64,000 nucleotides of DNA from an uncultured virus (IMG/VR IMGVR_UViG_3300021401_000002) (Duplodnaviria; Heunggongvirae; Uroviricota; Caudoviricetes), in IMG/VR virus record IMGVR_UViG_3300021401_000002; one strand, written 5' to 3'. Position 1 is the first letter of the stretch. Each line of letters begins with the position of its first letter. A model generated the notes under the pieces. That model worked only from the letters and a program-made list of their open reading frames with translations, had not been told where the DNA came from and ran no database searches. Of this stretch, positions 42,222 through 60,153 are shown one piece after another. The translations under genes and the position numbers were made by a program.

Positions 42222-42234
42222 AAATACGTAGCAG

Positions 42235-42305: not shown

Positions 42306-42306
42306 A

Positions 42307-42377
42307 TGGCACGGCGAGAAAGAATCGAACTTTCTTCCAGAGGATTGGAATCTCTGTTGTGCCCTGCACTTCGCCGT
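42307..42377 (-). tRNA. tRNA-Trp(CCA)
   Basis: Loop TT-CCA-AT, CCA end. Confidence 0.85.
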
Positions 42378-42381
42378 ATAG

Positions 42382-42454
42382 CGCCCTCGGCCGGAATCGA
42401 ACCGAGCCTCACTCCGTAGACAGCGGAGCTGCCTCGCCAGATGCATACGAGGGC
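42382..42454 (-). tRNA. tRNA-Asp(GTC)
   Basis: Loop CT-GTC-TA (U37). Confidence 0.9.
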
Positions 42455-42458
42455 GTAG

Positions 42459-42531
42459 CCTCCTCGCCGTGAGTCGAACACGGTACAAACTGTTTAGGAA
42501 ACAGCTGCTCGGAATCCGCCGAGACGAGGAG
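42459..42531 (-). tRNA. tRNA-Arg(CCT)
   Basis: Loop TT-CCT-AA. Confidence 0.85.
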
Positions 42532-42542
42532 ATGTTTGACGG

Positions 42543-42617
42543 TGTGAGCGGTGAGATTCGGACTCACAAACCCGAAGGTTTGAGCTTCGGAGCTTTACCA
42601 ATTAGACTTACGCTCAC
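42543..42617 (-). tRNA. tRNA-Leu(CAA), short variable loop
   Basis: Loop CT-CAA-AC. Confidence 0.85.
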
Positions 42618-42621
42618 TCAG

Positions 42622-42696
42622 TAGGCACGGTCCGATTCGAACGGACACACTCGATGTTTTAGGCATCGAAGCTTTGCCAATTAGACTTACGTGCCC
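42622..42696 (-). tRNA. tRNA-Leu(TAA), short variable loop
   Basis: Loop CC-TAA-AA (C33). Confidence 0.85.
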
Positions 42697-42700
42697 TCAG

Positions 42701-42784
42701 TACCACCGATAGGGTTCGAACCTACACGCCCTTTCGGACATAGCGACCTCAACGCTACGCGTATACCAACTTCGCCACGGTGGC
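42701..42784 (-). tRNA. tRNA-Leu(GAG)
   Basis: Loop TT-GAG-GT, long variable arm. Confidence 0.9.
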
Positions 42785-42785
42785 A

Positions 42786-42861
42786 TGGTCTAGATGAAGG
42801 GATTTGAACTCTTATATCTCCGACCCAAACGGAGCGCTCTACCAGATTGAGCTACACCTAG
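42786..42861 (-). tRNA. tRNA-Pro(TGG)
   Basis: Loop TT-TGG-GT, CCA encoded. Confidence 0.9.
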
Positions 42862-42865
42862 TCAC

Positions 42866-42941
42866 TGGTGGTCAGTGAGGGATTCGAACCCCCTACGCCG
42901 AGTGCTTCAAACTCGCGCTCTACCAATTGAGCTAACTGACC
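42866..42941 (-). tRNA. tRNA-Phe(GAA)
   Basis: Loop TT-GAA-GC, CCA encoded. Confidence 0.9.
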
Positions 42942-42942
42942 A

Positions 42943-43018
42943 TGGCGTCCCTACAGAGATTTGAACTCTGTTTTCCTGATTGAGAAACAGGTGTCCTTGC
43001 CAAGTAGACGATAGGGAC
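42943..43018 (-). tRNA. tRNA-Glu(CTC)
   Basis: Loop TT-CTC-AA, CCA encoded. Confidence 0.9.
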
Positions 43019-43107
43019 ATAGCGCTCCATCTTATTCGCCGCCGGATAGAGCAACGGGGCCGCTTTGCGCGGTCGGAGGTTTTTAGGCCCCCACGTTTTT
43101 GAAGTAG

Positions 43108-43179
43108 CGCGCGATACGAGAATCGAACTCGTCTTGGCGGGTTGAAAAGCCACCATCCTGACCACTAGAAGAATCGCGC
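43108..43179 (-). tRNA. tRNA-Glu(TTC)
   Basis: Loop TT-TTC-AA. Confidence 0.85.
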
Positions 43180-43180
43180 A

Positions 43181-43254
43181 TGGAGCCCGCAAGCGGAATC
43201 GAACCGCTCCCACTGATTTACGAAACCAGTGCTCCGCCTTGGAGCTATACGGGC
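43181..43254 (-). tRNA. tRNA-Thr(CGT)
   Basis: Loop TT-CGT-AA, CCA encoded. Confidence 0.9.
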
Positions 43255-43258
43255 GCAG

Positions 43259-43328
43259 AGCCGACGATGGGATCTCGAACCCAAGCCTCGCTCGCTACAA
43301 GGGAGCGGTGACGCCTCGTCACGTCGGC
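43259..43328 (-). tRNA. tRNA-Thr(TGT)
   Basis: Loop CT-TGT-AG. Confidence 0.8.
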
Positions 43329-43329
43329 A

Positions 43330-43725
43330 TTACTTTTTATGAGAGCGCGCACCTCTTGCAGGTTTCGGTACACGGTCAAACTTCGACTTCCGAACTCGAA
43401 GAGATGCGACGTTGATCTCGTCGTGCACTTCCCGGTGACAATTCGCGCAAAGGAGAATCGTCTTGTCCAATTCTGGTTTGAGTCTCTCGAAAGACTTGGT
43501 ACCAAACCTAGAAATATTGAAATCCTTTTCCAACGGATCAGGATGATGAAACTCGAAAGCGGCTTGACACTTCTTGTATCCACATTTCTGGCAGCGACCG
43601 CCTTTGTAGGCCACTGCTCTGGACTTCATCTGACGTCGACGCTCTACCATCGCAATCGTCAGATATTCTCTTCGATAGGGGGTAAGACGTCTTTTGCTGG
43701 GCGGAAGCAATCTGTTGTCTAGCAC
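43330..43725 (-). CDS. HNH endonuclease
   Basis: KGGRCQKCGY...FEFHHPDP...LLCANCHREVH. Confidence 0.88.
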   Translation of the reverse strand: MLDNRLLPPSKRRLTPYRREYLTIAMVERRRQMKSRAVAYKGGRCQKCGYKKCQAAFEFHHPDPLEKDFNISRFGTKSFERLKPELDKTILLCANCHREVHDEINVASLRVRKSKFDRVPKPARGARSHKK

Positions 43726-43749
43726 AGTTATCCATTAGCACGCTCTAAG

Positions 43750-43824
43750 CTCACGGACCTGGAATCGAACCAGGGACGGCGCGGTTAACAGCCGCGGATC
43801 AGTACCAGCACTGAGACTCCGTGA
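43750..43824 (-). tRNA. tRNA-Asn(GTT)
   Basis: Loop CT-GTT-AA. Confidence 0.9.
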
Positions 43825-43952
43825 ATGTGGGAGCCGAGGGCGCTCCCGTGTTTCTTGACGAACAGGAGAGGCTACCCATGCAAGCTCGAGGGAGCCCGCA
43901 CGCGCCACGTCCTTTCAAGTTTTCAAGGGTCAAGCGCTTCCGCGAGCGCCGG

Positions 43953-44023
43953 TTCGGGCCGAGGGGGTCGAACCCTCATTCTCCGCTCCAGAGGCGGATG
44001 TCTTGCCATTAGACGAAGCCCGA
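43953..44023 (-). tRNA. tRNA-Gln(CTG)
   Basis: Loop CT-CTG-GA. Confidence 0.9.
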
Positions 44024-44030
44024 TCACTTG

Positions 44031-44103
44031 TGGGTTCGGAGGGGGATGATCCCTCAACCTTCCGGGTAAGAACCGGCTGCTCGGCCAATCGAGCTGCGAA
44101 CCC
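44031..44103 (-). tRNA. tRNA-Lys(CTT)
   Basis: Loop TT-CTT-AC. Confidence 0.88.
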
Positions 44104-44108
44104 AAATG

Positions 44109-44181
44109 TGGATTCGGTGGGCAACGATCCCACAACCTCTCGGGTAAAAGCCGATTGCTCTGCCGATTGAGCTACGAATCC
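44109..44181 (-). tRNA. tRNA-Lys(TTT)
   Basis: Loop CT-TTT-AC. Confidence 0.88.
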
Positions 44182-44251
44182 TCCTTGGTTTTTGGCCCGT
44201 CTTTCACGGGCACGTTCTTGCGTTTGAGTTTCATGACTGGGTCTTTCTTCG

Positions 44252-44334
44252 TGGGGCACGGTGGAGTCGAACCACTTGCCATAAGGCCACCGGGTTACAA
44301 CCGGCTAGAGCTTCCACTGCTCCGAACGCACCCC
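44252..44334 (-). tRNA. tRNA-Tyr(GTA)
   Basis: Loop TT-GTA-AC, long variable arm. Confidence 0.85.
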
Positions 44335-44337
44335 ATT

Positions 44338-44438
44338 GGGATATGAGCAGTCGGAGCTCCGATAGCTCTCACGTTCGGTGATAGGTTGCATTGGATACAC
44401 GTCTCCTGTGATCGGCAGTCACGCAAAGGACAAATCCC
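44338..44438 (-). ncRNA. Unassigned multibranch structured RNA
   Basis: GGGATTTG/CATATCCC closing helix with three internal hairpins. Confidence 0.4.
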
Positions 44439-44475
44439 TAGTGCGTTATCCGAGCGTTTTGAATTTTTGAGCCCT

Positions 44476-44516
44476 GAAACGACGAAAGCCGCTCTCGATT
44501 TCCCGAGGCGGCTTTC
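44476..44516 (-). terminator. Intrinsic terminator (attenuator) ahead of the tRNA array
   Basis: GAAAGCCGCCTCG / CGAGAGCGGCTTTC hairpin followed by GTCGTTTC. Confidence 0.75.
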
Positions 44517-44551
44517 CTTTGCGCTACTTGCGCGAGAAGAAAATCCGCCTC
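44504..44551 (-). promoter_or_regulatory. Antiterminator helix competing with the terminator
   Basis: GAGGCGGATTTTC (44551-44539) pairs with GAAAGCCGCCTC (44516-44505). Confidence 0.7.
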
Positions 44552-44754
44552 TAGGTACCGGCCTCCTGATTGCGCGTCGCGAACTTGGGTTCGCCGAGGG
44601 AGGCCGGATACATGGGTGTCGAGCTATCGAGTCCAACTGGGCACAAAATGACGCGCTTCGCGATACCCGAAGGGGTGCACCACGACCCTGAAAGCGCTGC
44701 TGATTGGCTCAGCGGCCTCCGGGTCAGTAAGGTGGATTTCGCTATGGAATGCAT
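44551..44754 (-). CDS. Putative attenuator leader peptide (67 aa, all 20 amino acids)
   Basis: MHSIAKSTLLTRRPLSQ...NQEAGT; TAG overlaps the first base of the antiterminator arm. Confidence 0.6.
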   Translation of the reverse strand: MHSIAKSTLLTRRPLSQSAALSGSWCTPSGIAKRVILCPVGLDSSTPMYPASLGEPKFATRNQEAGT

Positions 44755-44770
44755 CGGAATCTCTTCAGCT

Positions 44771-44799
44771 ACTACGACATGGATTTTCGAAACGCGCAA
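44771..44799 (-). promoter_or_regulatory. Sigma70-like promoter for leader/tRNA operon
   Basis: A-tract, TTGCGC-17-CGTAGT with TGn extension. Confidence 0.45.
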
Positions 44800-44819
44800 G
44801 AACTTTTTTCGCCCATCAG

Positions 44820-44893
44820 GGTGGATGACGGGGATCGAACCCGCGCATACTGCGGCCACAACGCAGCGCCTTGACCACTTGGCTACATCCACC
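44820..44893 (-). tRNA. tRNA-His(GTG)
   Basis: Loop TT-GTG-GC, G-1:C73. Confidence 0.92.
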
Positions 44894-50146: not shown

Positions 50147-50356
50147 ATGCCCAGACCTCGCAGCGATAACACTCAGTCGATGACGATCAAGATGCCTCGA
50201 AAGTGGGTCGAGGACGCAAGTGGCTGTGCCAAGCGGGCTACGGAGCATGGATTTGCAACGGTTACACGCACCGACATCTTTCGATCTGCGCTGCGAAAAG
50301 GTCTCGACGCAATCATCGAAGAGCAGCGCCAAAAAGAGAAGAGGCGAGAAAAATGA
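50147..50356 (+). CDS. Ribbon-helix-helix regulator coupled to cas12
   Basis: SMTIKM strand; VTRTDIFRSALRKGLD; TGA overlaps the cas12 ATG. Confidence 0.8.
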   Translation: MPRPRSDNTQSMTIKMPRKWVEDASGCAKRATEHGFATVTRTDIFRSALRKGLDAIIEEQRQKEKRREK

Positions 50357-52218
50357 CGATGATTCGAGTCTACAAGTACGGTCTTCTTCGACCCATTCAG
50401 AACGAAGCGCTCGTACGGGCGCAGCTTCGTGCCAAACACGACTATCGCAACACGCTCATCGAAATCGAAAGAGGTCGACGTACGGCGATGAGAAACGTCG
50501 AGGAGCAACATTCTGAGCTTGCTACGGCGATGGCAGCTTCACGTGCAGCGCTCGTGGAGCTGGAAGAGTCACGCCAAGCCATTCGCCTTGCTCGCAGCAA
50601 GTCTCGCAGCCGATCCGAAACAAACGTGATGAAAGAACGCGTCAAACAGGCCCGAATCGTGAGACGTACGACATCGCAAGCACTCTATGATTGCCGAGCG
50701 CGTGTTCGTCCAGAAATGATTTCTGCACGCGATGTCATCAACGAACGCGCAGCCGAGCTCGTTCGTGGAGCCCGAGCGCTCACGACGTCGTATTGGGGCT
50801 CGTATCTACTTGCCGAAGACGAGGTCAAGGCCGCTGCGAAGCAGCCGCTTTACGACGATTCTACGCCGAATGATCCTCGCTTTGAACGCTGGACTGGCGA
50901 AGGTCAAATCGGAATGCAAATTCAAAATGGCATGACGCCTGGCGAGGTGCTCAGCTCTGAAGATACACGACTTCGCATCAGCGAACCGAATTGGAACGAC
51001 GGCAAGCACGTGCGAACTCTTCGCACTCTTTCGCTACGTGTCGGATCAGAAGGACGCAAGCCAGTTTGGGCATCTTGGCCTCTCATCATGCATCGACCTC
51101 TTCCGCCCGCGGCGCGTATCAAAAGATGCAACGTTTCTTTGCGCCGCCACAGCTCGCGTGAGATATGGTCCGCCGAGCTTACGATTGAATGCCCGAACGT
51201 AACGAGCGCAATTCGCGAAGAGCACGGGTGGGGACGCGGCGGCGGAGTCGAAGGAGCCGTGGGAGTCGACATCGGCTGGCGTGTTGTCACGGATGACGAC
51301 GCAGGTCTCCGTGTGTGCGCCTACGCATCAGAAGACGGTCAGGACATTGGTGAGCTTCGTCTTAGTCCTCATGAGATTACGCGTTTACGCAAGGCAGATG
51401 AAATCAGGAGCATTCGAGACAAGAGGTTTGATGCGATTCGTCTCATTGTGCGAGACAAGCTTGCGACGCTCGAAGTTCCAGCGTGGCTTTCCATGTCGAC
51501 GCTGCATATGCATGTGTGGCGTTCACCGGCTAGGCTTGTCTCGCTCTCGAAGCGTTGGAGCAAGGAGCGCTTCGCAAACGATGAAGAGGTCTTCGATTTG
51601 CTCGAGTCTTGGAGGTACTGGGACAGCCAGCACTACCAATGGGAATGCGATCAGCGCACCAAGGCGCTGCGACGGCGACGCGAAAAGTACCGAGTGTTCG
51701 GGGCTCGGCTCGCGGAAAAATACGAGGTGCTGGTACTCGAAGATCGAGCAGAAGATGACCGAACCAAACCCATGGATCTCCGAAAGTTCGCCCGCCGAGC
51801 TCAAACGGAGATGGAACCAGAGAACGAGACGGCAAGGTCAAACAGACACCTCGCAGCAACAAGCGAGCTACGCCAAGCCCTCGAAGAGGCTTTTATCTCC
51901 CACGGCGGACGTGTCGAGCTTGCGCCATGTGAAGATACAACGCGAACGTGCACAGCGTGTGGCGTCGTCGATCGTGGATTGGATGCGGAAACTGAAATCG
52001 ATGTAACGTGCTCGTCGTGTGGTGCCAAGCAAGACCAGGACGTGCGTGCGAGCAACAACCTTTGCGAGCGGTGGCGTAAAGCGCAAAATGCCGGAGGCGC
52101 TCGCAATGCCAAAGCGGCGAAATCAGAGGGGAGATGGAAAAAAGCAAGACGTCTTCGGACCGAAAAGCAGCAGCGAATGGGAACCTTTCGCAATGCCAGC
52201 GATAACAGCGCAGAATGA
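50353..52218 (+). CDS. cas12m: Compact type V CRISPR effector, Cas12m (V-M/V-U1) family, 621 aa
   Basis: YWGSY, GQIGMQIQ, MHRPLP, VGVDIGWR, WRSPARL, LVLED, CTACG...CSSCG, DQD co-linear with Cas12m as I recall it; adjacent array. Confidence 0.85.
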   Translation: MTMIRVYKYGLLRPIQNEALVRAQLRAKHDYRNTLIEIERGRRTAMRNVEEQHSELATAMAASRAALVELEESRQAIRLARSKSRSRSETNVMKERVKQARIVRRTTSQALYDCRARVRPEMISARDVINERAAELVRGARALTTSYWGSYLLAEDEVKAAAKQPLYDDSTPNDPRFERWTGEGQIGMQIQNGMTPGEVLSSEDTRLRISEPNWNDGKHVRTLRTLSLRVGSEGRKPVWASWPLIMHRPLPPAARIKRCNVSLRRHSSREIWSAELTIECPNVTSAIREEHGWGRGGGVEGAVGVDIGWRVVTDDDAGLRVCAYASEDGQDIGELRLSPHEITRLRKADEIRSIRDKRFDAIRLIVRDKLATLEVPAWLSMSTLHMHVWRSPARLVSLSKRWSKERFANDEEVFDLLESWRYWDSQHYQWECDQRTKALRRRREKYRVFGARLAEKYEVLVLEDRAEDDRTKPMDLRKFARRAQTEMEPENETARSNRHLAATSELRQALEEAFISHGGRVELAPCEDTTRTCTACGVVDRGLDAETEIDVTCSSCGAKQDQDVRASNNLCERWRKAQNAGGARNAKAAKSEGRWKKARRLRTEKQQRMGTFRNASDNSAE

Positions 52219-52237
52219 CAACTCTCTCCAGAGAGGA

Positions 52238-52865
52238 GTCTCAATGGCTGCGACGAGCCGTGCAATCGTCGACCGTGAGCGGCGCGACGGGCGGCACGAC
52301 AGGTGCGGTCTGTCTCAATGGCTGCGACGAGCCGTGCAATCGTCGACGCCCAAGGACACGTGTACTTGGAATCCCTGCTGGGAGGTCTCAATGGCTGCGA
52401 CGAGCCGTGCAATCGTCGACGCGCGCGGCACCGACGAGACGCTCGCGCACAGTTGCGTCTCAATGGCTGCGACGAGCCGTGCAATCGTCGACGCGGTGAC
52501 ACCTTTGCTCTCACCTTCGTTCGTGGGCTGTCTCAATGGCTGCGACGAGCCGTGCAATCGTCGACCTGCTGGCGGGCGCTGTGAGCGTACTCGTGTGGAC
52601 CCTCGTCTCAATGGCTGCGACGAGCCGTGCAATCGTCGACCGCCGCAACCTGTGGCGCTCCCCAACGGCATCATCACGTGTCTCAATGGCTGCGACGAGC
52701 CGTGCAATCGTCGACGTCTCGTAGACGATCGCCCACTTGTACCTGCCCTCGTCGTGTCTCAATGGCTGCGACGAGCCGTGCAATCGTCGACTCCACGTGC
52801 TGAAGGCGACGATGCCGCCTGCGTACCGGGTCTCAATGGCTGCGACGAGCCGTGCAATCGTTGAC
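52238..52865 (+). CRISPR. CRISPR array, 9 repeats of 36 bp, 8 spacers of 36-40 bp
   Basis: GTCTCAATGGCTGCGACGAGCCGTGCAATCGTCGAC at 52238, 52312, 52385, 52457, 52530, 52605, 52680, 52756, 52830 (last has one mismatch). Confidence 0.99.
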
Positions 52866-52880
52866 ATCGGCACGTGGGCG

Positions 52881-53483
52881 TCAACGATTTCGTTCGCCAT
52901 CTTCGCGCTGTTCGCGGGTTCCGTACAAGTAATCCGAGGGATTTTTCAAGCGAGCGACCTTGAACGCTTCCTTGAGCCGTTTGTACTTCCACACGAGATC
53001 ATGCACGCGTTCGAATGACAAGAGCGAAAGATCGCCGCTCACGATCATCTTCACGATTGCTGCGCTAGCAGCTGTAGCCTCATGAAGAGGCGTCCCTGCG
53101 TGAGTAGCGAGCCGAAGAAATTTCTGCGCCTTCGATTCGATCTTCTCCCAGTCGACCTCTCCACTGGCTTCCACCCAAGGCATCTTGCTTTCGTGCTCTA
53201 GCTCGTACTCGTTCAATCGTTGCTCGAGTCCGTCAACGAACGAGCGAAGCTCCTCAGGGGTGCGAACATGTTTTACCGGAAGCAAATGCGTCGCGAAGCG
53301 ATAGCCAGCGAGCCGCCAACTTGAAATGATCTCGTGGCGACGAGGCGAAGAAGACGCGCCTCGTGGTCCTTGCCGCTCGACTGGGTGAACACGTGCGATG
53401 AGGTCTTCGCACACTTGGCGAAAGAAAGCGTGCTCGATGGACTCTTCGTCTTCACCGTCACGCTTCGCCCCGGTGTAGTCCAC
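52881..53483 (-). CDS. Hypothetical protein
   Basis: 200 aa helical ORF converging on the array. Confidence 0.6.
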   Translation of the reverse strand: MDYTGAKRDGEDEESIEHAFFRQVCEDLIARVHPVERQGPRGASSSPRRHEIISSWRLAGYRFATHLLPVKHVRTPEELRSFVDGLEQRLNEYELEHESKMPWVEASGEVDWEKIESKAQKFLRLATHAGTPLHEATAASAAIVKMIVSGDLSLLSFERVHDLVWKYKRLKEAFKVARLKNPSDYLYGTREQREDGERNR

Positions 53484-53667
53484 TGCTACTTCCCACCGCT
53501 ATCGGGTTTTCGGCTTTTGGGTTTAGGCGTCGGAACGAATGGAGGAAACCGTAATACAGGTGTCGGAACTGAAACTGGCACTCCGTAATTGCGTGCTCCA
53601 CACACGCATCGAGTCATTCGCCTAGCCTGAACGAGAATGCCACGCTTACAGAAATTACAACGCGTCC

Positions 53668-55062
53668 TCACGTTCCACCTGCCTGATGATATTCCTCTAG
53701 TAGCTTCACGAGACTCACGGCCGCCACTTTGCAAAAGTCGTCGAGCGTTTGGTGAATGACGATCCCCACGCCTGGATCACTTTGTATCATGGCGCCGAGC
53801 ATGAGCGCCATGTGCGCAACGAGCGCAATGCCCTGATCCGACGCAGCGTCCTCGGAGCTCGACGCGTCTGCAATGGCATCCCAGAGCTGGAGCGGTCCGG
53901 GCTCGAGCGCCTCGCGGATCACGCCCTCCTTTCCACGAGCGCGCACGAGCGCGAAGAACGACGCTGTTTGAAGGGCCACCGAGAGCCGAAGCTTGTCGAG
54001 CTCCGACGGCTCGCCCTCCTCGACCTCTTCCGCCTCTGCCCCTACCTCTTCTGCCTCTGCCCCTACCTCTTCTGCCTCTGCGTCTTCGACCTTTGTGTCC
54101 GTTGGAACTTGACCAGACGCGGTCTCCGTCTTGGTCTCTGTTCCGGCCTCTGGCGACGTCTTCGGTTTTGCTCCGTTCACACCGTTTGCGCCATTCGTTT
54201 TCGGCTTGGAGGTTTTCGCTGCTCGCTTTTGCTCTTGATACCACTCGTTGAACTCGGGCGGCAGTGACTCGCCGCCTCGACGTTGCAACATCGACATAGC
54301 CATGACCATGAGCTTTGGACCGTGCTTTTCGAGGCCGGCGAAAATGCTATCGACAATCTTTTTCTTGAACGCTTCGGCCTCCTCGTCTGCCTTCTCCTTT
54401 TTCTTCTGTTCGTATTCGAGACCTCGGGCTGCAATTTCGATTTCACGAACAGCGGTCTCTTTGTCCGTATACGCCTGACGGACGCTGTCATGGTGAACCT
54501 CTCGCTTTTGGTAGATGTCGAGAAGATGCATCGTTCGATCGTCCAAACGCGCTTCTTTCTTAGAGACGTATTCCAAGACCGCAGGCATCAACCGTTCGGC
54601 GATGCCTGCCTCGAACTGGGCATTGAGACCGCCAGCACCAGCAGCGCCACCATACATTCCCATGGCCCGACTACCGGGACCAGACAAGACCATGGATTGT
54701 GTCTCTTGTCCGCCGTACACCTTGAACATGAAACGAGAGCGGTTGTCGTGGTCTTTGGAATGGAACGCGAGCTCGTAAATGATGTCGCCTGCGGGCTGAA
54801 ACGAAGCATCGTGACAGCAGACTCTCTCGACGATACGAACGACGGAATCGAGTGATATGTGAGGCCCTCGAAGATCTCGCTCGAACCACTCGCCTACGGG
54901 TTCGTCACGCATTCCGCCCTTGAGGCGGAGAGACATTCGAATGATCTTGCGCAGCGCAAGCTCGGCCTCATCGCCGACGAGCGGTTTCGAGTAGCAGAGC
55001 GCATCGTCGATCGCGTTCGAGACCTGCCTCTTCGTTTCGGCTGAGAATTCCAGGGTTGCCAT
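53668..55062 (-). CDS. Hypothetical protein, coiled-coil and acidic repeats
   Basis: 464 aa; AEAEEVG 21-bp tandem repeat near 54023-54081. Confidence 0.65.
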   Translation of the reverse strand: MATLEFSAETKRQVSNAIDDALCYSKPLVGDEAELALRKIIRMSLRLKGGMRDEPVGEWFERDLRGPHISLDSVVRIVERVCCHDASFQPAGDIIYELAFHSKDHDNRSRFMFKVYGGQETQSMVLSGPGSRAMGMYGGAAGAGGLNAQFEAGIAERLMPAVLEYVSKKEARLDDRTMHLLDIYQKREVHHDSVRQAYTDKETAVREIEIAARGLEYEQKKKEKADEEAEAFKKKIVDSIFAGLEKHGPKLMVMAMSMLQRRGGESLPPEFNEWYQEQKRAAKTSKPKTNGANGVNGAKPKTSPEAGTETKTETASGQVPTDTKVEDAEAEEVGAEAEEVGAEAEEVEEGEPSELDKLRLSVALQTASFFALVRARGKEGVIREALEPGPLQLWDAIADASSSEDAASDQGIALVAHMALMLGAMIQSDPGVGIVIHQTLDDFCKVAAVSLVKLLEEYHQAGGT

Positions 55063-55120
55063 AGCCCTACATTTACTACGTGACGCAAGCCTTGCCTAGC
55101 CGTCCTGTGAAGCAGTAGTA

Positions 55121-55930
55121 TTGACGAAGATGATGAACGCCAGCCTAAAACTGCGTTCCAAAACTAAACCGAAGCCGCGAGAGCGACTCACTTTAGAGGA
55201 ACAAACCCAAAAAGACATCGATGAAGGACTGCTTACGATCGAAGAAGCTACCGCCCAATTCAAGTTGCACAATATCAAAGGTCTGACTTGTTTAGAATCG
55301 GTCAGGCGAGCCATTGTCGGAAAGCGCATCTCAGCGACTAGAGCGCAATGGCCAGCTCGTGGATTTCGAATCAAGAAATCAGAAGTAGAATCCCTCATCA
55401 AAAAATTGAAACCCGAAGTCGAAAAAGCAGCGCAGGGAATTCATAAACAGCTCTACGATTTCTTTGCCGCTGACCCATTGCACACTCCCGTTCTCGCTGT
55501 CTTACAAGGTATTTCGACCTCCGCCGATGAAACCGAACGGATCTATCGGCTATTCAAAAGACATCAACCTACACTTCAAGCTTACAAAGCGAGACAAGCG
55601 CATCTGGAATGGGAAAACAAACAAACCGAAGCAGCCAAGCAAGAACCCCCATGCGAAGGCTGCAAGAGAACCCACTTCCAGGCGCGACATGAAAGCGCCA
55701 ATGTCGTCACCCAAGTTACTAGACGTCCACTCGACCCATGGTTACATGCAGGAACTCAGTTCGATGAATGGGAAATTGCAGCGCTCATCGATTTCAGAGA
55801 GAAGTGGCAATGCTCATCCTGCTTCATGTGGTTGCTCGGTGCTCCTGTCTCGAAAATGAAAGAGCTACTCGATGCTCAACGTCCAAAAGAGGTCTTGACA
55901 TCTACACCGCCCATCAGTGAAACAGGATAA
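55121..55930 (+). CDS. Possible DNA-binding protein (excisionase-like HTH plus Zn ribbon)
   Basis: LLTIEEAT...VRRAIVGKRISA...FRIKKSEV; CEGC...CSSC. Confidence 0.5.
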   Translation: MTKMMNASLKLRSKTKPKPRERLTLEEQTQKDIDEGLLTIEEATAQFKLHNIKGLTCLESVRRAIVGKRISATRAQWPARGFRIKKSEVESLIKKLKPEVEKAAQGIHKQLYDFFAADPLHTPVLAVLQGISTSADETERIYRLFKRHQPTLQAYKARQAHLEWENKQTEAAKQEPPCEGCKRTHFQARHESANVVTQVTRRPLDPWLHAGTQFDEWEIAALIDFREKWQCSSCFMWLLGAPVSKMKELLDAQRPKEVLTSTPPISETG

Positions 55931-55953
55931 CGCTTTCAAAGAGGTCCAATTCC

Positions 55954-56667
55954 ATGCAATCGCCCCCGCCCCCGCAACAGCCTCCCTACGGTAACCCGCA
56001 GCAGCCGCCATTTGGCGGTCCACCGCACCGTCGTCCTCAGATCTTTGCTCCCATCGCGAGCCTCGCAGAGCTCAAAGACCAAAGCGAAGGTCGCATCCTT
56101 CGTTACGGCGAAGAGATTCGTGGTCGAAGACGCGTGCTCCAGAGGCTTCAAAATGAATGTGGCAACCTCGCCAACGCCGCTCACCACGCGATGCAAGATC
56201 CGCAGATGACCCCCGAGCAAAGGGCGCGCGCTGCCGCCGACGTCGACATGCTCGGCAAGTGGTACGCTGTCGTTGGTCAAGCGCTCGAGATCAACAAACA
56301 GTACCTCGAAGACATCGTCCAAACCGAGTTCGTTCTGCAAGGCATCGCTCAGCGCTGGGTTGCGGGCATGCCGCCTGATCCGAGCCTGCTCGAACCGCTC
56401 ACAGGCTCGCAGCCGCAGCCACAGCCACAGCCGCAACAGCAACAGCAACAGCAGCAACAGCAGCAAAACGCGCCAGAGCCTGAGCCCCAGCACTACGCGG
56501 CTTCTCCACCCGTAACTCAAGCTCAGGCTCCTGCGGCCCCTCATCGTATCGTACCCATGCCGCGAGCCGCTGCCATCGCACCACGTCAGCCTGTGCAAGA
56601 ACAGCAACAATCGCCCGAAGAGCCTGCGAAAACGAACAGCGGCAGCGAGCCGCGGACGGCATCGTAG
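55954..56667 (+). CDS. Pro/Gln-rich coiled-coil protein
   Basis: 237 aa, poly-Q. Confidence 0.6.
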   Translation: MQSPPPPQQPPYGNPQQPPFGGPPHRRPQIFAPIASLAELKDQSEGRILRYGEEIRGRRRVLQRLQNECGNLANAAHHAMQDPQMTPEQRARAAADVDMLGKWYAVVGQALEINKQYLEDIVQTEFVLQGIAQRWVAGMPPDPSLLEPLTGSQPQPQPQPQQQQQQQQQQQNAPEPEPQHYAASPPVTQAQAPAAPHRIVPMPRAAAIAPRQPVQEQQQSPEEPAKTNSGSEPRTAS

Positions 56668-56714
56668 ACCGTTTTCCGTCAAAGGCGTATCATGAGGAAC
56701 GAAAGTAGGTTCCC

Positions 56715-56921
56715 ATGGCTGTCGTCGGACTTCTCACGCTCATCGTCTGCATCCTCGGCCTCGTCGTCTATCTGTCTCTCACCTCCTTCTCTAGAGCGAC
56801 CTTCACCGACGTCGCTCGCATCTGTTTTGCGGCTGGGCTCTTGGCCTTCCTCATGAGTCAGGGCGCCTCGAGTTGCTCCATGGGCACCAGCGGCGCTTCC
56901 TCGAGCAGCCAGCATCGATAA
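56715..56921 (+). CDS. Small two-TM protein
   Basis: Two hydrophobic helices. Confidence 0.5.
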   Translation: MAVVGLLTLIVCILGLVVYLSLTSFSRATFTDVARICFAAGLLAFLMSQGASSCSMGTSGASSSSQHR

Positions 56922-56937
56922 GAAGAGAGAAAGAGGC

Positions 56938-57141
56938 ATGCCGCTCATTCATCGCTGCACCCAAGCCGCGTTCGAAAAGAACGTTCGCACCCTTCATCAC
57001 GAAAATCGCACGAGGCGAAGAAAGCGAAGCGCGAAGCAAATCCTCGCTATCGCCTACTCCACCGCTCGCCGCGCCGCCGCGTTCTACAGGAAGAGACCCG
57101 CGTGGCTATTCCGCCGTGCCACTCACCGAACAACGCGATGA
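56938..57141 (+). CDS. Small basic phage protein
   Basis: MPL...KQILAIAYSTARR pattern. Confidence 0.55.
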   Translation: MPLIHRCTQAAFEKNVRTLHHENRTRRRKRSAKQILAIAYSTARRAAAFYRKRPAWLFRRATHRTTR

Positions 57142-57674
57142 CCTCTTCATTTTCTTCTCCGTCACCCGACCTGGAGTCCGTGTACTACTCGCCCAGAAGA
57201 GCTCGCCCAGTTCCGAACCCTCCGCGTGCGACGTTCGACGCCGATCGCATCATCAGCGGAAAACCTCCTACTCAGCAAGGATCGCTCTGGCAAGGCGCTG
57301 CGAGCACCGTTCACACGGCCGACATGCACGGCTTCGACGTCGTCGTACTCTGCGCGCAAGAGTTCCAGCCCATCCTTCCGCGTTCCATCGAGGTCATTCG
57401 TTTTCTGAGTGACGACTGCGAGCTCACGATGCCCCATCTCAAGGAAGCAGCCTTTGTCAGTGGAAAGGTCGAGCGCCGCGTACGAGCCGGAAAACATGTA
57501 CTATGCACGTGTTTTGCGGGTTTCAACCGCAGCGGGCTCGTCGTCGCGCTCGCGACGATGAAGCTCACGAAGAAGCCCGGGCGTGAAGTTGTAGACCACA
57601 TCCAACGCAGACGCGAAGGCGCGCTTTGCAACGAGAGCTTCGCTCGAGCGCTCCGCAGGCTGAGAGCGGTTTGA
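57138..57674 (+). CDS. Dual-specificity/PTP-family phosphatase
   Basis: CX5R motif CFAGFNRS. Confidence 0.8.
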   Translation: MTSSFSSPSPDLESVYYSPRRARPVPNPPRATFDADRIISGKPPTQQGSLWQGAASTVHTADMHGFDVVVLCAQEFQPILPRSIEVIRFLSDDCELTMPHLKEAAFVSGKVERRVRAGKHVLCTCFAGFNRSGLVVALATMKLTKKPGREVVDHIQRRREGALCNESFARALRRLRAV

Positions 57675-57675
57675 C

Positions 57676-57996
57676 GTGAGCGCTGAAGAAGAGATCGATA
57701 GCTACCTTGCACGGTCGCCGATTCAAGACTTAGAAGACTTAGAAGACTGGGACAGGAAATACTTCCAGCACTTCATCCAACGCCTACGCGACCATAAAGG
57801 TCCTAAATTATTCATCGTCGACTTCCAAGAAGTTCCCATGCTTATGAAGATACCTGGATGTCTCAGAATGGAAGGAACGCATATCGGAAACTACCGCATT
57901 TATATCTTCGGCGTACCGTGCGAACTTGAAATGCCAACTTGGATTAGCCAAGGACCGGACCGTCCTGAATACATCATAAAAGAACGCAAACCATGA
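57676..57996 (+). CDS. Hypothetical protein
   Basis: 106 aa, lower GC. Confidence 0.5.
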   Translation: MSAEEEIDSYLARSPIQDLEDLEDWDRKYFQHFIQRLRDHKGPKLFIVDFQEVPMLMKIPGCLRMEGTHIGNYRIYIFGVPCELEMPTWISQGPDRPEYIIKERKP

Positions 57997-58619
57997 GCGC
58001 CGCCCAAACAACTGATAGTAGTCTCAATGGCTGCGACGAGCCATGCAATCGTCGACGCGACTGGGTCGATGTCGGGAGCGCTAAGCAGCTCGCGCTCTAC
58101 GAAGCCGATCCCAACTACTCGGGACGCCCAGTCGTCTACGACTTCGAAGACCAAGAGGTCGAGCCTCAAGCGATTCTTCCAGGGCTTCGCAAGGATGTGG
58201 GGTTTGCGAAGAGGTCTTTCCGGAAATGGAAGGACGACAAGGGCCAAGTCATCGAGAAGGCCCCGCGCTACAAAGGCGCGACTTTCTACTCAAAACTCAT
58301 TCTCCTTCCGACCGATGTGCACGGCAAACCCCTCAGGCTCGGCAACTTCCAGGTGATGCTCCACGGGAGCAGCAGCTACATCGTCTGCGACTGGTCCAAG
58401 CCGCTCGGCGAAAACGTCGTCTACGTCTCGTCGAAGGGATTTCGCGACGCCTGCATCCTCTGCGGCATGTTCCATCGCTGGGAGCGCTGGCAAGGACCGC
58501 TCCGTAGAAACCAATCACGACACAAGGCCGTCTTCGGCCGCGAAGCAAAACCGAAGCCGCCGCCTCCGCCCGAAGCACCCGATGCCGACGATCTTGGCGA
58601 GGACGTCACTTTGCGCTAA
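57993..58619 (+). CDS. Hypothetical protein with in-frame CRISPR repeat near its N-terminus
   Basis: ATGA coupling; strong codon bias after the repeat. Confidence 0.6.
   Translation: MSAAQTTDSSLNGCDEPCNRRRDWVDVGSAKQLALYEADPNYSGRPVVYDFEDQEVEPQAILPGLRKDVGFAKRSFRKWKDDKGQVIEKAPRYKGATFYSKLILLPTDVHGKPLRLGNFQVMLHGSSSYIVCDWSKPLGENVVYVSSKGFRDACILCGMFHRWERWQGPLRRNQSRHKAVFGREAKPKPPPPPEAPDADDLGEDVTLR
58021..58056 (+). CRISPR. Solitary CRISPR repeat
   Basis: 35/36 identity to the array repeat; mismatch in the hairpin loop. Confidence 0.95.
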
Positions 58620-58648
58620 GTTTTGGACAAGGAGTCTTCGATACTAAC

Positions 58649-59001
58649 GGGAGCGAAATGGTTTCGACAGTGAGAGGAAGATCCCATCTGCGTATGAGCG
58701 GCGCTCGATCCGGTCTGACCAATCGAGCAAGCCCAATTGCGAACGACAACGCAATCGCGAACGCGGCCTAAGAACCGCTTCGCCATCAATGACGTAGACG
58801 ACTCGGTATCGTCATTGGTGTGAACCCAACAGAGTCACCATTACCCATTACGAGCGCGAGTCTCGCAAAACCTCGCTGGTGGACGGTGAAAATCGGGAAA
58901 CCGATTCAGCCCCTTCTGTCGGTGGAGCCAATCACCGAATATGTACGTAGATGATGGGATACGAAACTTGCTGGACCTGGGTTCGATTCCCAGCGCTTCC
59001 A
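58649..59001 (+). ncRNA. ssrA: tmRNA
   Basis: GGGAGCG/CGCTTCC acceptor with G3:U70, TTCGAC near the 5' end, T arm GGTTCGATTCC, tag ORF ANDNAIANAA-stop at 58739-58771. Confidence 0.95.
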
Positions 59002-59200
59002 CTAAGTTGTAGAATACAAATAACCTTGAAGTACTTCTTCAAGTCCGTGAAAATTTGGCAGACCTTTTCGGCCGTCGGGACGAATCGTCAAAGAGCAGAA
59101 CCTGACGCAGAGGACTTGCCCATTTTCGATCGGCTGTGGCATACAGGTTACTCGCCTTTCACGCGTCCGATACGCGAACGCGGACTGACAATACCCACAG

Positions 59201-59239
59201 AAAAAAGGCCCACTGGCTCCGCGACGAGCACAGTGGGCC
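59201..59239 (-). terminator. Intrinsic terminator on the minus strand
   Basis: GGCCCACTG/CAGTGGGCC stem followed by T6. Confidence 0.7.
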
Positions 59240-59251
59240 AGGAGAGCGTTC

Positions 59252-59878
59252 ATGCCGCTCGACCCGTGCAATATACAGTCTTCCTCTTTGGCGTCAACAC
59301 CTCTCGTCTCCTTCGATTCCGAAGCCAAGAGCGAGGTCAGAGCCAAACCCAAAGGCAGAGCAAACGGCAAGCTCAAGGTCAACGGCATTCACAAGAACGG
59401 CATCCACGGCAACTCGACGCCGATCCCATACGTGCCCGTCGAACCGCGGCCGAATTCGAAAGCTCCGCCGAGCAACGGCATAAAAGCCTCCTCCACAGGT
59501 AAGTGTTCGAGCTGCGGGCGCAAAAACGTGCTCGTCTCGATGCCGCCGATGTGCCGCTGCATCGACCATTCCACTTGTGAGGAGGTTCGAAAGCTCATCG
59601 GCCTCATGCGCTCCGGGAAGCCAATCCCAGTGACGAAACGCGCCGTTGTCGTCACGAAGAGACACGGTGTCCCGTACTACTTGAAAACGGTCTATTATAA
59701 GACGCGCGAGCTCGTCGCGGGCGAAATCGTGAACGCTCCCACCGCCAATCGCATCGTCGAGAAGACGATCGGCGAGGCGCTCGAGCTTGTGCGCGAGAAG
59801 AACGAGGCGACGAAGTTCCCGCCCGACAAGGCCAACCAGCTCGCCGCCATCTGGGGCGCCGTGGCGAAGGAGGTCTAG
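59252..59878 (+). CDS. Hypothetical protein with Cys motif
   Basis: SD GGAG; CSSCG...CRC. Confidence 0.6.
   Translation: MPLDPCNIQSSSLASTPLVSFDSEAKSEVRAKPKGRANGKLKVNGIHKNGIHGNSTPIPYVPVEPRPNSKAPPSNGIKASSTGKCSSCGRKNVLVSMPPMCRCIDHSTCEEVRKLIGLMRSGKPIPVTKRAVVVTKRHGVPYYLKTVYYKTRELVAGEIVNAPTANRIVEKTIGEALELVREKNEATKFPPDKANQLAAIWGAVAKEV
59270..59297 (-). promoter_or_regulatory. Antisense sigma70-like promoter
   Basis: TTGACG-16-TATATT. Confidence 0.5.
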
Positions 59879-59880
59879 CG

Positions 59881-60153
59881 ATGGTCGGCATAGGCTTCAG
59901 TGCCACCATCACTGGGGACACGACGTTCGGCGAGGTCGATAAGCGTCTCGCCCAAAGCAGGCTCCGGGTCCTGAGCCTCGCGTGGCAAGGCGAAGACGAA
60001 ACGTACTCCGTTCGCCTCGGCTACCACCAGTCCAGGTTCAAACACATCTACTTCGGCACCGGAAAGACGCTGCACGCGGCGATCACGAGCGCGCTCAACG
60101 AGTACGTCATCCACCAAGCCAACACGTACTGCCGCGAACGCACGCAGCCATGA
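59881..60153 (+). CDS. Hypothetical protein
   Basis: SD AGGAGG. Confidence 0.6.
   Translation: MVGIGFSATITGDTTFGEVDKRLAQSRLRVLSLAWQGEDETYSVRLGYHQSRFKHIYFGTGKTLHAAITSALNEYVIHQANTYCRERTQP

What the first reader, a model, noticed from the sequence alone, without database searches (positions are those of the whole stretch)
57993..58100. Solitary CRISPR repeat embedded in frame in a protein-coding gene 5 kb from the array
Seen: 58021-58056 matches the array repeat at 35/36 in the same orientation, and the one change is in the hairpin loop so the stem is intact. It sits 28 nt after an ATG coupled to the upstream stop and reads SLNGCDEPCNRR without breaking the frame. Inference: the effector could cut this mRNA (post-transcriptional control), release a non-array guide starting GCGACTGGGTCGATGTCGGG, or be titrated by it as with Racr solitary-repeat anti-CRISPRs. 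It could also be an ectopic integration scar.
Basis: partly seen in the sequence, partly recalled or inferred. Interest (0 to 1): 0.75.

Follow-up and report, generated by a model that had tools for sequence, protein, structure and literature searches.

The report
Phage gene carrying its own CRISPR guide
A large soil phage that carries a Cas12m CRISPR system has one extra repeat plus a 21-base guide written in frame inside one of its own genes, and that guide matches the unmodified version of the same gene in sibling phages, so it looks like a weapon or mark aimed at close relatives.

Summary
Window 58021-58056 is a 35/36 copy of the 36-nt repeat of the array at 52238-52865, same strand, in frame in the 208-aa ORF 57993-58619. 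Two independent 100%-identical metagenome contigs carry it too, so it is not a chimera. The effector 5 kb upstream is a Cas12m (type V-M).

New here: 9 of 14 family members lack the segment. The closest (189 aa, 87-90% identical) start MSDDPDIDPVAKQLALY. The 21 nt right after the solitary repeat (58057-58077) are the reverse complement of the codons for PDIDPV(A). A contig of a relative laid on the window shows the same inverted match in DNA. On that repeat-less allele the matched stretch is preceded by 5'-TTN, the PAM published for Cas12m2.

So this is a repeat-spacer unit sitting at, and replacing, its own target site. A second relative (L004) has its own solitary repeat elsewhere in the same gene block, directly before native sequence that follows TTT in the window.

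Best reading (about 0.5): an orphan Cas12m guide against sibling phages that keep the old allele. Main rival (0.3): an inert recombination scar. A Racr-like decoy is not supported. No expression or processing data exist. It is a new variant of virus-borne mini-arrays.

The parts
50203..52218 (+). Cas12m (type V-M) effector ORF; homology to solved Cas12m starts at residue 51, so the likely start is ATG 50353
   Evidence: phmmer against PDB chains, 23vw_A 'CRISPR-associated DNA-binding protein Cas12m' E 2.9e-57 and Cas12m2 8hhl_A 3e-24. Pfam Cas12f1-like_TNB 5.2e-09. In the printed alignment the query carries D (..VDIGW..), E (..LVLED..) and D (..DQD..) where I place the RuvC motifs; that motif placement is my reading, not a tool call.
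52238..52865 (+). CRISPR array, 9 repeats of 36 nt and 8 spacers of 36-40 nt; the last repeat carries C33T
57676..57996 (+). 106-aa ORF of unknown function whose stop overlaps the start of the next gene (ATGA). It is absent from L004 and present in the relative seen in run X14
   Evidence: the reverse complement of the loose end ends a reading frame with ..RKP-stop, like the window's ..ERKP-stop; its cluster has 4 members.
57993..58619 (+). 208-aa conserved phage gene of unknown function that hosts the unit
   Evidence: 14-sequence family alignment; no Pfam or PHROGs family
57999..58020 (+). 22 nt of unknown origin between the shared ATGAGC and the repeat; codes AAQTTDS(S)
   Evidence: best match elsewhere 15/22, which is background; the resemblance to the array leader is not significant (924 of 2000 shuffles score as well).
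58021..58056 (+). Solitary CRISPR repeat, 35/36 to the array repeat (G23A, unpaired position)
58057..58077 (+). 21-nt guide-like segment. It is the reverse complement of the segment of the repeat-less allele that codes PDIDPV(A)
   Evidence: the minus-strand reading gives PDIDPVA, which equals residues 5-11 of P0007/P0008; a contig of run X14 fits the window up to 58077, then runs on with 30 letters whose reverse complement is a gene start (ATG AGC GAC GA) behind ..RKP-stop.
58079..58100 (+). Point where forward homology with the repeat-less allele resumes (..AKQLALY..). It holds TAA (58082-58084), the complement of the TTA PAM. In the window that PAM is followed on the minus strand by only 3 matching guide letters (7 of 21 overall), so there is no self-target
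   Evidence: X14 contig 58078-58181 with its first listed differences at 58124-58133; the 7/21 count is my reading of the sequence

Best explanation
The solitary repeat and the 21 nt behind it form an orphan repeat-spacer unit, a one-repeat mini-array, written in frame into the variable N-terminal tail of a phage gene. It would be transcribed with the operon that contains it. The phage's own Cas12m, encoded 5 kb upstream, would bind the repeat and cut the transcript in or before it, as published for other Cas12m enzymes. It would then hold an RNA whose guide pairs with the start of the same gene in sibling phages that still have the old, repeat-less allele, where a 5'-TTN PAM sits at the correct end. 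Characterised Cas12m enzymes bind DNA without cutting it. The expected effect is therefore a roadblock to transcription or replication of a co-infecting sibling genome, that is, allele-specific exclusion. The carrier is immune because the unit replaced its own target. Each transcript that yields a guide loses the start codon of the 208-aa gene, so guide production and translation of that gene compete.

Shown: the repeat copy, the derived state of the allele, the inverted 21-nt relation, the PAM-compatible flank, the effector family, and a second solitary repeat in a relative.

Inferred: transcription, processing, loading, binding and any effect on competitors.
For: (1) The effector is a Cas12m.

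(2) The repeat is 35/36 and both stems are intact. The same architecture recurs with other letters in the repeats of two distant phage Cas12m loci (L001; KX853510.1): GGCU/AGCC, with a GGCC/GGCC variant in L001, and CGACGA/UCGUCG versus UCUCUAC/GUAGAGA. This fits the stem I/stem II and stem-plus-pseudoknot descriptions in PMC11013384 and PMC10442227 (passages).

(3) In alignment A3, 9 of 14 family members from at least 4 diverged lineages lack the segment, so the window allele is derived.

(4) The minus strand of 58055-58077 encodes PDIDPVA, which equals residues 5-11 of the 189-aa alleles P0007/P0008 at the homologous place. Only 2 seven-residue words of their first 20 residues occur anywhere in the six-frame window.

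(5) DNA-level support comes from the X14 contig.

(6) The match starts exactly at the first base after the repeat. The end that abuts the repeat is the end that lies next to TTN in the target. The A-K codons (GCN AAR) of P0007/P0008 force 5'-TTN on the other strand. This is the geometry of a type V guide, and 5'-TTN is the PAM reported for Cas12m2 (PMC10442227 passage); T- and C-rich PAMs are reported for six Cas12m (PMC11013384 passage).

(7) 21 nt exceeds the heteroduplex of about 17-18 bp implied by the Cas12m2 passages.

(8) There is no self-target in the 64-kb window (best 15/21, background).

(9) L004, a relative with about 75% nt identity, has its own solitary repeat (33/36 to the window's, also G23A, with A16G keeping a G-U pair). 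It sits between a stop codon and the ribosome-binding site of the next gene, directly before native sequence. The window's repeat-less version of that site has TTT immediately before the same sequence.

(10) The unit is present unchanged in all 5 unit-bearing protein variants, and 17 DNA-type soil runs from many studies, dated 2018-2025, hold at least a fifth of the sampled words of 52000-59100, which contains it.
Against: - There is no RNA evidence at the unit. The two soil metatranscriptome runs laid (Logan contigs) covered only the tmRNA and one 185-nt piece at 56888-57072.
- I never saw the DNA of the P0007/P0008 contigs. The nucleotide match rests on one contig end laid at 85% likeness or better, whose fitted extent was not listed, plus a 7-residue protein identity.
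- The spacer-like match is 21 nt, whereas array spacers are 36-40 nt.
- There is no second repeat and no predicted promoter.
- The PAM of this particular Cas12m is unknown. None of the 8 array spacers has a match that would reveal it.
- Two other phage genomes with Cas12m arrays have no solitary copy: 9 of 9 and 12 of 12 repeat matches lie in their arrays.
- The unit-bearing alleles are at least 99% identical, so the unchanged unit says little about selection.
- For L004 the 'empty' allele used is that of a 75%-identical phage and differs from the L004 guide at 3 of the first 21 positions.
Confidence: 0.5

Rival explanations
1. Inert scar. A fragment of a CRISPR array (the tail of one spacer, a repeat, and the first 21-23 nt of a spacer aimed at this gene) was copied into the target site. 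This could have happened by template switching at a Cas12m roadblock or during repair. It survived only because it kept the frame in a tolerant N-terminal tail and destroyed the target, giving escape from self-targeting or sibling targeting. It has no present function.
For: - The replaced stretch (24 nt) coincides with the protospacer footprint.
- The patch is a multiple of 3, and residues 1-28 have pLDDT of about 30 in a low-confidence model.
- The 22 nt before the repeat have no match anywhere, as a lost spacer tail would.
- There is no promoter, no second repeat and no RNA cover.
- Two other Cas12m phages lack such copies.
Against: - The repeat is still 35/36 with both stems intact, and it abuts the guide exactly.
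- A second, independent solitary repeat sits at another gene start in L004 and is also structure-preserving.
- A unit of this form would be expected to make a guide whenever it is transcribed, whatever its origin, because single repeat-guide transcripts suffice for Cas12 enzymes (general knowledge, not tested here).
Confidence: 0.3
2. Post-transcriptional switch. The repeat serves mainly as a Cas12m binding and cleavage site in the mRNA. In the window it would separate the start codon from the 208-aa ORF. In L004 it would occlude the ribosome-binding site of the next gene. The genes would thus be turned down once Cas12m accumulates, and the guide content would be irrelevant.
For: - Both solitary repeats lie at the 5' ends of genes of one co-oriented block: 28 nt after the ATG in the window, and directly before AAAGAGG and 17 nt before the ATG in L004.
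- Cas12m cleaves pre-crRNA within or upstream of the repeat scaffold (passages).
Against: It does not explain why the 21 nt behind the window's repeat are an inverted copy of the old allele with a PAM-compatible flank. The positions at gene starts may simply be the places where an insertion is tolerated. The functions of the affected genes are unknown.
Confidence: 0.1
3. RNA anti-CRISPR (Racr-like decoy). The solitary repeat titrates a Cas12m of the host or of a rival phage.
For: It is a solitary repeat in a virus with an intact structure, the defining look of solitary repeat units (PMC10651486 passages).
Against: - It lies inside an ORF, with no promoter predicted.
- It matches the phage's own array beside its own cas12m, whereas Racr candidates are described as intergenic, behind a promoter and not linked to cas genes.
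- The repeat core occurs in 0 contigs of the species-representative genome collection and in 0 IMG/VR contigs.
- A decoy would blunt the phage's own effector.
- It leaves the inverted 21-mer unexplained.
Confidence: 0.04
4. Autoregulatory crRNA-like RNA. The guide pairs partially with a promoter of cas12m or of a cargo gene in the same genome, as CreA, scaRNA or the V-A standalone repeats do.
For: A standalone repeat lies 5 kb from the cas gene. Such elements are widespread, including in type V-A (bioRxiv 10.1101/2023.03.03.530964, passages).
Against: The best match of the 21-mer elsewhere in the 64-kb window is 15/21, equal to shuffled controls at 14-17. The rest of the genome was not available.
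Confidence: 0.04
5. Assembly artefact that joined array reads to a gene.
For: None found.
Against: Two further assemblies are identical across the junctions. Several protein records from different sources carry the coded segment. 9 sequencing runs hold at least half of the sampled words of 52000-59100.
Confidence: 0.01

Closest known systems
Virus-borne CRISPR mini-arrays used in conflicts between related viruses (SPV1/SPV2, Medvedeva et al. 2019, PMC6858448; phage mini-arrays of Faure et al. 2019, as cited there and in PMC7099407 and PMC11656645)
   Same: A virus carries a guide against a closely related virus. The orthologous site in the carrier is changed so that it is not targeted. The targets lie close to the mini-array, a proximity the authors call unexplained (passages).
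   Different: - Here there is one repeat, not two or three.
- The unit lies inside a coding gene, in frame, exactly at the orthologous target site.
- No leader or promoter was found.
- The virus supplies its own effector (Cas12m) instead of borrowing the host's.
- The matched guide is only 21 nt long.
Solitary repeat units acting as RNA anti-CRISPRs (Racr; Camara-Wilpert et al. 2023, PMC10651486)
   Same: A lone, structure-preserving copy of a CRISPR repeat in a viral genome.
   Different: Racr candidates are intergenic, promoter-driven, not linked to cas genes, and mimic the host's repeats. Their search tool masks ORFs, so a copy like this one would not have been reported (passages). Here the copy matches the phage's own array and is followed by a PAM-compatible guide.
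Type V-M CRISPR-Cas12m systems (Omura et al. 2023, PMC10442227; Bigelyte et al. 2024, PMC11013384; a phage-encoded example in bioRxiv 10.64898/2026.09.14.751636)
   Same: - A compact Cas12m with an adjacent array.
- No adaptation genes seen.
- A single crRNA with two stems.
- T-rich 5' PAM.
- Inter-element competition is the proposed role.
   Different: None of the passages I read mentions a repeat outside the array. The preprint has 0 occurrences of 'solitary'. Whether this effector only binds DNA is not known.
crRNA-like regulatory RNAs (CreA, scaRNA, V-A standalone repeats; Shmakov et al. 2023 preprint 10.1101/2023.03.03.530964)
   Same: A repeat outside the array, near the cas gene, that would load the effector with a non-array guide.
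   Different: Those guides pair partially with promoters in the same genome. Here no such site exists in 64 kb, and the full match is to another allele of the host gene in other genomes.
Homing-endonuclease marker exclusion in phages, and synthetic gene drives with the guide placed in its own target site (recalled from general knowledge; no paper read here)
   Same: The geometry is the same. The element sits in, and destroys, the site that its nuclease or binder recognises in the empty allele.
   Different: No copying of the unit into the empty allele is shown. Characterised Cas12m enzymes bind without cutting. This is a resemblance only.

Membership tests
Virus-borne mini-CRISPR array / repeat-spacer unit for inter-virus conflict | Repeat (nearly) identical to that of a working CRISPR system available during infection | tested here: met
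   35/36 to the phage's own 9-repeat array next to cas12m
Virus-borne mini-CRISPR array / repeat-spacer unit for inter-virus conflict | Spacer matches a closely related virus and not the carrier | tested here: met
   The reverse complement of 58057-58077 codes residues 5-11 of P0007/P0008, which are 87-90% identical relatives. The X14 contig shows the same match in DNA. The best match elsewhere in the window is 15/21. I did not see the nucleotide sequence of the relatives' contigs.
Virus-borne mini-CRISPR array / repeat-spacer unit for inter-virus conflict | Orthologous site in the carrier altered so that it is not targeted | tested here: met
   The target is replaced by the unit itself. Behind the retained TTA only 7 of 21 positions match (sequence).
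Virus-borne mini-CRISPR array / repeat-spacer unit for inter-virus conflict | Spacer flanked by two repeats (1-2 spacers) | tested here: not met
   No second copy at 22/36 or better near the unit
Virus-borne mini-CRISPR array / repeat-spacer unit for inter-virus conflict | Leader with promoter (archaeal cases), or at least an intergenic position | tested here: not met
   The unit is inside ORF 57993-58619. No sigma-70-like site lies upstream; 2 sites were found in 55000-59200, at 56665 and 58987.
Virus-borne mini-CRISPR array / repeat-spacer unit for inter-virus conflict | Exclusion of the targeted virus in co-infection | not testable with these tools
   Needs a cultured host and phages
Racr (RNA anti-CRISPR from a solitary repeat unit) | Solitary repeat with no partial repeat within 100 bp | tested here: met
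Racr (RNA anti-CRISPR from a solitary repeat unit) | Small non-coding RNA from an intergenic region with its own promoter | tested here: not met
   In frame in a conserved gene; no promoter predicted; expression not observed
Racr (RNA anti-CRISPR from a solitary repeat unit) | Mimics the repeat of the host's CRISPR system; not linked to cas genes | tested here: not met
   It matches the phage's own array 5 kb from cas12m. There were 0 exact matches of the 24-nt repeat core in the species-representative genome collection. The host is unknown.
Type V-M CRISPR-Cas (Cas12m) | Effector homologous to Cas12m | tested here: met
   E 2.9e-57 to 23vw_A over residues 56-622; 3e-24 to Cas12m2
Type V-M CRISPR-Cas (Cas12m) | Repeat with two stems, guide 3' of the repeat, no tracrRNA | tested here: inconclusive
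   Stems are readable and vary in a compensating way between three phage loci. The automatic alignment fold was out of register. No tracrRNA search was made.
Type V-M CRISPR-Cas (Cas12m) | T- or C-rich 5' PAM | tested here: inconclusive
   Both inferred targets have TT at -3,-2: TTA from the A-K codons and TTT in the window at 55934-55936. No protospacer of an array spacer was found to confirm this.
Type V-M CRISPR-Cas (Cas12m) | DNA binding without cleavage | not testable with these tools
   The query shows D/E/D at the motifs I take for RuvC. According to PMC11013384 passages, Cas12m with different active-site make-ups all lacked cleavage.
crRNA-like regulatory RNA (CreA, scaRNA, V-A standalone repeat) | Guide partially complementary to a promoter of a cas or cargo gene in the same genome | tested here: not met
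   Best 15/21 in the 64-kb window, equal to the background of 14-17. The rest of the genome is not held.

The most novel reading that the evidence does not exclude
A natural 'guide in its own target site' element. In this phage lineage, Cas12m guides arise without Cas1-Cas2 by writing a repeat next to, or into, the phage's own genes. Two independent cases are seen: the window and L004. The carrier is marked as self, and every sibling with the empty allele becomes a target. During co-infection this gives allele-specific exclusion of siblings. If the effector nicks DNA or stalls forks, it could also give preferential inheritance or copying of the unit, as in homing or marker exclusion. The replaced 24 nt coincide with the effector's footprint, which hints that the R-loop itself seeds the event.
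Probability: 0.15. Interest if true: 0.9.

Novelty: new variant of a known kind. Interest (0 to 1): 0.72.

Why it matters
Viruses that aim CRISPR guides at their own relatives are known. In those cases the guides sit in small intergenic arrays and use the host's Cas proteins.

Here a guide appears to be written in frame into a protein-coding gene, at the very place it targets in siblings, and it is served by the phage's own DNA-binding Cas12m. If it works, three things follow:
- One stretch of DNA can be both protein and crRNA.
- It would give a mechanism by which adaptation-less phage CRISPR systems gain guides.
- It would give a simple self/non-self mark between sibling phages, with the geometry of a homing element.

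It also shows that surveys which mask ORFs before looking for solitary repeats miss this class.

All of this can be tested directly with three cloned parts: cas12m, the 0.7-kb gene start, and a target carrying the old allele.

Tried and rejected
- **Whole genome of the window:** not held.
- **Repeat in other collections:** exact or degenerate repeat patterns gave 0 hits in IMG/VR and 0 in the species-representative genomes.
- **208-aa family in other collections:** no relative in IMG/VR (161 pattern stretches, none confirmed). None in the species-representative genomes (177 stretches, none confirmed). None in INPHARED phages.
- **Metagenome scan:** 11 loci. I used the 3 close ones (L002-L004) and set aside the 8 distant ones (L005-L012, 28-37% identity over part of the protein).
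- **Other protein searches:** shorter protein fragments, none. A search with the ORF that reads through the array, to catch other arrays or genes with embedded repeats, returned only the window's own sequence.
- **Leader-like flank:** rejected. 924 of 2000 shuffles and 576 of 2000 random window 40-mers score as well.
- **Array spacers and the 22-mer:** only background matches against the window, L004 and L001.
- **Promoter scan:** nothing upstream of the unit.
- **RNA:** the two metatranscriptome runs laid gave no contig over the unit or the array. These are contigs and a part without cover says nothing.
- **Structure:** the model of the 208-aa protein has mean pLDDT 54.9, too poor for a fold search, so none was run.
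- **Consensus fold:** the automatic fold of seven repeats was out of register between loci and was not used.
- **Function:** Pfam and PHROGs gave none for the 208-aa, 106-aa, 237-aa and 269-aa proteins.
- **Origin models considered and dropped:**
  - Inversion between an array spacer and its protospacer was rejected because it would leave the repeat inverted relative to the array.
  - Target-primed copying of the crRNA handle fits the L004 geometry but not the window's.
- **Minor:** one paper look-up failed on a term that was too short and was not repeated.
Full report
**Setting**

The window looks like part of a large phage genome.
- It holds 31 tRNA genes on the minus strand at 39.8-44.9 kb and a tmRNA at 58649-59004.
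- It holds a protein-primed family-B DNA polymerase at 61407 to the window end, a dual-specificity phosphatase at 57102-57674, peptidoglycan-binding domains, an HNH endonuclease and a Hint/intein-like protein.
- No whole genome is held for it.
- ORF 50203-52218 is a Cas12m: phmmer against solved structures gives 2.9e-57 to a chain named 'CRISPR-associated DNA-binding protein Cas12m' and 3e-24 to Cas12m2.
- It is followed at 52238-52865 by an array of 9 repeats and 8 spacers.
- I scanned 64 ORF translations with Pfam: 17 and 47. Six of the 65 ORFs kept were not scanned. None hit a Cas1, Cas2 or Cas4 family. The genome outside the window was not seen.

- The solitary copy at 58021-58056 is 35/36 to the array repeat, on the same strand, with 0 matches expected by chance.
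- Its one change (G23A) is unpaired in the predicted fold.
- It lies 28 nt into ORF 57993-58619, whose ATG overlaps the stop of ORF 57676-57996.
- Two contigs from other metagenome assemblies (L002, L003) are 100% identical across it.
- 17 DNA-type soil runs from many studies hold at least a fifth of the sampled words of 52000-59100, and 9 of them hold half or more.
- Being 'in frame' means little, since the repeat is 36 nt long and open in all three + frames.

**The gene is real and the segment is derived**

- The 208-aa protein has homologs (4 proteins among 83 candidates). Their 90% clusters add more.
- In the 14-sequence alignment, five sequences carry the segment: the window, P0001, P0006, P0009 and P0010.
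- Nine lack it: P0007, P0008, P0002, P0013, P0011, P0012, P0003, P0014 and P0004. They span 48-90% identity.
- The nearest repeat-less alleles, P0007 and P0008, are 189 aa long and 87-90% identical. P0008 begins MSDDPDIDPVAKQLALY; P0007 has L at the first residue.
- The window begins MSAAQTTDS-SLNGCDEPCNRR-RDWVDVGS-AKQLALY.
- So 27 residues stand where the relatives have 8, a net gain of 19.

**The key result**

- The 21 nt directly after the repeat (58057-58077), read on the minus strand, encode PDIDPV. With the last base of the repeat they encode PDIDPVA. These are exactly residues 5-11 of P0007/P0008 at the homologous place.
- Independent DNA evidence comes from laying contigs of run X14, which holds a relative.
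  - One contig fits the window up to 58077 and then continues with 30 other letters.
  - The reverse complement of those letters ends a reading frame with ..RKP-stop, like the window's 106-aa ORF, which ends ..ERKP-stop.
  - It then opens the next frame with ATG AGC GAC GA (MSD..), overlapping in ATGA just as in the window.
  - A second X14 contig covers 58078-58181, with its first listed differences at 58124-58133.
- Together these show that the relative's gene start is followed by the reverse complement of the window's post-repeat 21-mer, and then by the shared AKQLALY codons.
- The window allele is therefore: ATGAGC, then 22 nt of unknown origin, then the repeat, then an inverted copy of the old allele's 21 nt, then the old sequence.

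**Why this reads as a spacer**

- The inverted match begins at the first base after the repeat.
- The end that abuts the repeat is the end that, in the old allele, lies next to the Ala-Lys codons. GCN AAR on the coding strand gives 5'-TTN on the guide-sense strand.
- A 5' PAM next to the repeat-proximal end of the guide is the type V geometry.
- 5'-TTN is the PAM reported for Cas12m2 (PMC10442227, passages). T- and C-rich PAMs are reported for six other Cas12m (PMC11013384, passages).
- The window's repeat shows the two stems. The repeats of two distant phage Cas12m loci keep them with other letters (L001; KX853510.1).
- In the window itself the retained TTA is followed by only 7 of 21 guide positions. 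No other site in 64 kb exceeds background. The carrier is therefore not a target.

**A second case**

- L004 is a 5152-bp contig that is syntenic with window 54655-60077 at about 69-77% nucleotide identity. It lacks both the repeat in its 207-aa homolog and the 106-aa ORF.
- It carries its own solitary repeat at L004:1302-1337.
- That copy is 33/36 to the window's solitary copy and 32/36 to the array repeat. It shares G23A, and its A16G change keeps a G-U pair.
- It sits between the stop of the 271-aa gene and the ribosome-binding site of the 235-aa gene, and is followed directly by native sequence.
- At the same junction the window has no repeat. It has TTT immediately before the same sequence.
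- The L004 'guide' and the window differ at 3 of the first 21 positions, as expected at this divergence.
- So two related phages each have one solitary repeat at a different gene start of the same block. In both cases the repeat-less allele offers TTN plus a matching stretch.
- Two more distant phage genomes with Cas12m arrays have none: 9 of 9 and 12 of 12 repeat matches lie in their arrays.

**Mechanism proposed**

The unit would be transcribed with the operon, bound and cut by Cas12m, and would direct the effector to sibling genomes with the old allele. This is allele-specific exclusion. The carrier is protected because the unit replaced its own target. Guide production would compete with translation of the 208-aa gene, because cleavage in the repeat removes the start codon.

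Everything beyond the sequence relations is inference.
- The two soil metatranscriptome runs laid held exact contigs only for the tmRNA (58660-58920 and 58662-58999) and for 56888-57072.
- No promoter is predicted next to the unit.
- The PAM of this enzyme is unknown.
- I did not see the DNA of the P0007/P0008 contigs.

**Origin**

The replaced 24 nt coincide with the protospacer. The 22 nt before the repeat match nothing. This would fit a copied array fragment made of a spacer tail, a repeat and the first 21-23 nt of a spacer. It could have been produced, for example, by template switching at a Cas12m-bound site. This is speculation. A simple inversion between a spacer and its protospacer does not give the observed orientation.

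**Comparison with what is known**

- Virus-borne mini-arrays whose spacers target close relatives are established. In those cases the carrier's own site is mutated or deleted, and the targets lie near the mini-array for unexplained reasons (PMC6858448, PMC7099407, PMC11656645; passages).
- The present case shares that logic. It differs in having a single repeat, an in-frame position inside a gene at the exact target site, no leader, and a phage-encoded effector.
- It fails the tested features of a Racr and of crRNA-like autoregulators.
- A phage-encoded Cas12m with an eight-spacer array and no adaptation genes has been described in a 2026 preprint. That preprint does not mention any solitary repeat (0 occurrences of 'solitary').
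- My searches for 'solitary repeat' with CRISPR (8 papers), for mini-arrays with solitary repeat units or superinfection exclusion (9 papers), and for mini-array, homing, marker exclusion or Cas12 turned up no report of a repeat-spacer unit embedded in a coding gene at its own target. I read only listings and passages, not whole papers or supplements.

**Verdict**

The best reading is an orphan Cas12m guide against sibling phages (about 0.5). An inert recombination scar is the main rival (0.3). It is a new variant of a known kind.

Noticed in passing
window 58649-59004 (+): A phage-encoded tmRNA (tag peptide ANDNAIANAA) starts 30 nt after the stop of the gene that holds the unit. Exact RNA contigs covering 58660-58920 and 58662-58999 occur in two soil metatranscriptome runs, so it is probably expressed in nature. 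If Cas12m cuts the mRNA at the embedded repeat, the 5' piece would be a non-stop message, which is the substrate of tmRNA. That link is only a thought.
   Followed up: partly
L004:1302-1337 (equivalent to the window junction 55930/55954): A related phage has its own solitary repeat between a stop codon and the next gene's ribosome-binding site. It shares the G23A change with the window's solitary copy, although the nine array repeats of the window have G. The array of that phage was not on the 5-kb contig.
   Followed up: partly
window 52856-52889: The C33T change of the terminal array repeat creates a perfect 10-bp inverted repeat with the sequence 14 nt downstream (AATCGTTGAC ... GTCAACGATT). 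This may be a hairpin that ends the array transcript.
   Followed up: no
window 39839-44892 (-): A cluster of 31 tRNA genes with an HNH endonuclease ORF (39943-40470) at its edge, typical of very large phages.
   Followed up: no
window 57676-57996: The 106-aa ORF directly upstream of the unit is missing from L004. It is present in the relative seen in run X14 and in a 4-member protein cluster. No family or function was found.
   Followed up: partly
L022 (KX853510.1, record 110803-122860): A phage genome deposited as 'Virus Rctr197k' carries a Cas12m-like gene (33.6% identity over 92% of the query) that is annotated only as 'similar to transposase'. It has an array of about 1.5 kb. A second transposase-like gene with its own small CRISPR lies 7 kb away. 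Phage Cas12m loci therefore sit unrecognised in public records.
   Followed up: partly
window 19585-19741, 31369-31504, 32615-32683, 33156-33205: Short in-frame tandem repeats (periods 9, 18, 21) inside long minus-strand ORFs, probably low-complexity stretches of structural or cell-wall-binding proteins.
   Followed up: no
window 14499-15650 (-): A 383-aa ORF with weak Hint/intein-splicing hits (below Pfam's cut-offs); possibly an intein-containing or Hint-domain protein.
   Followed up: no
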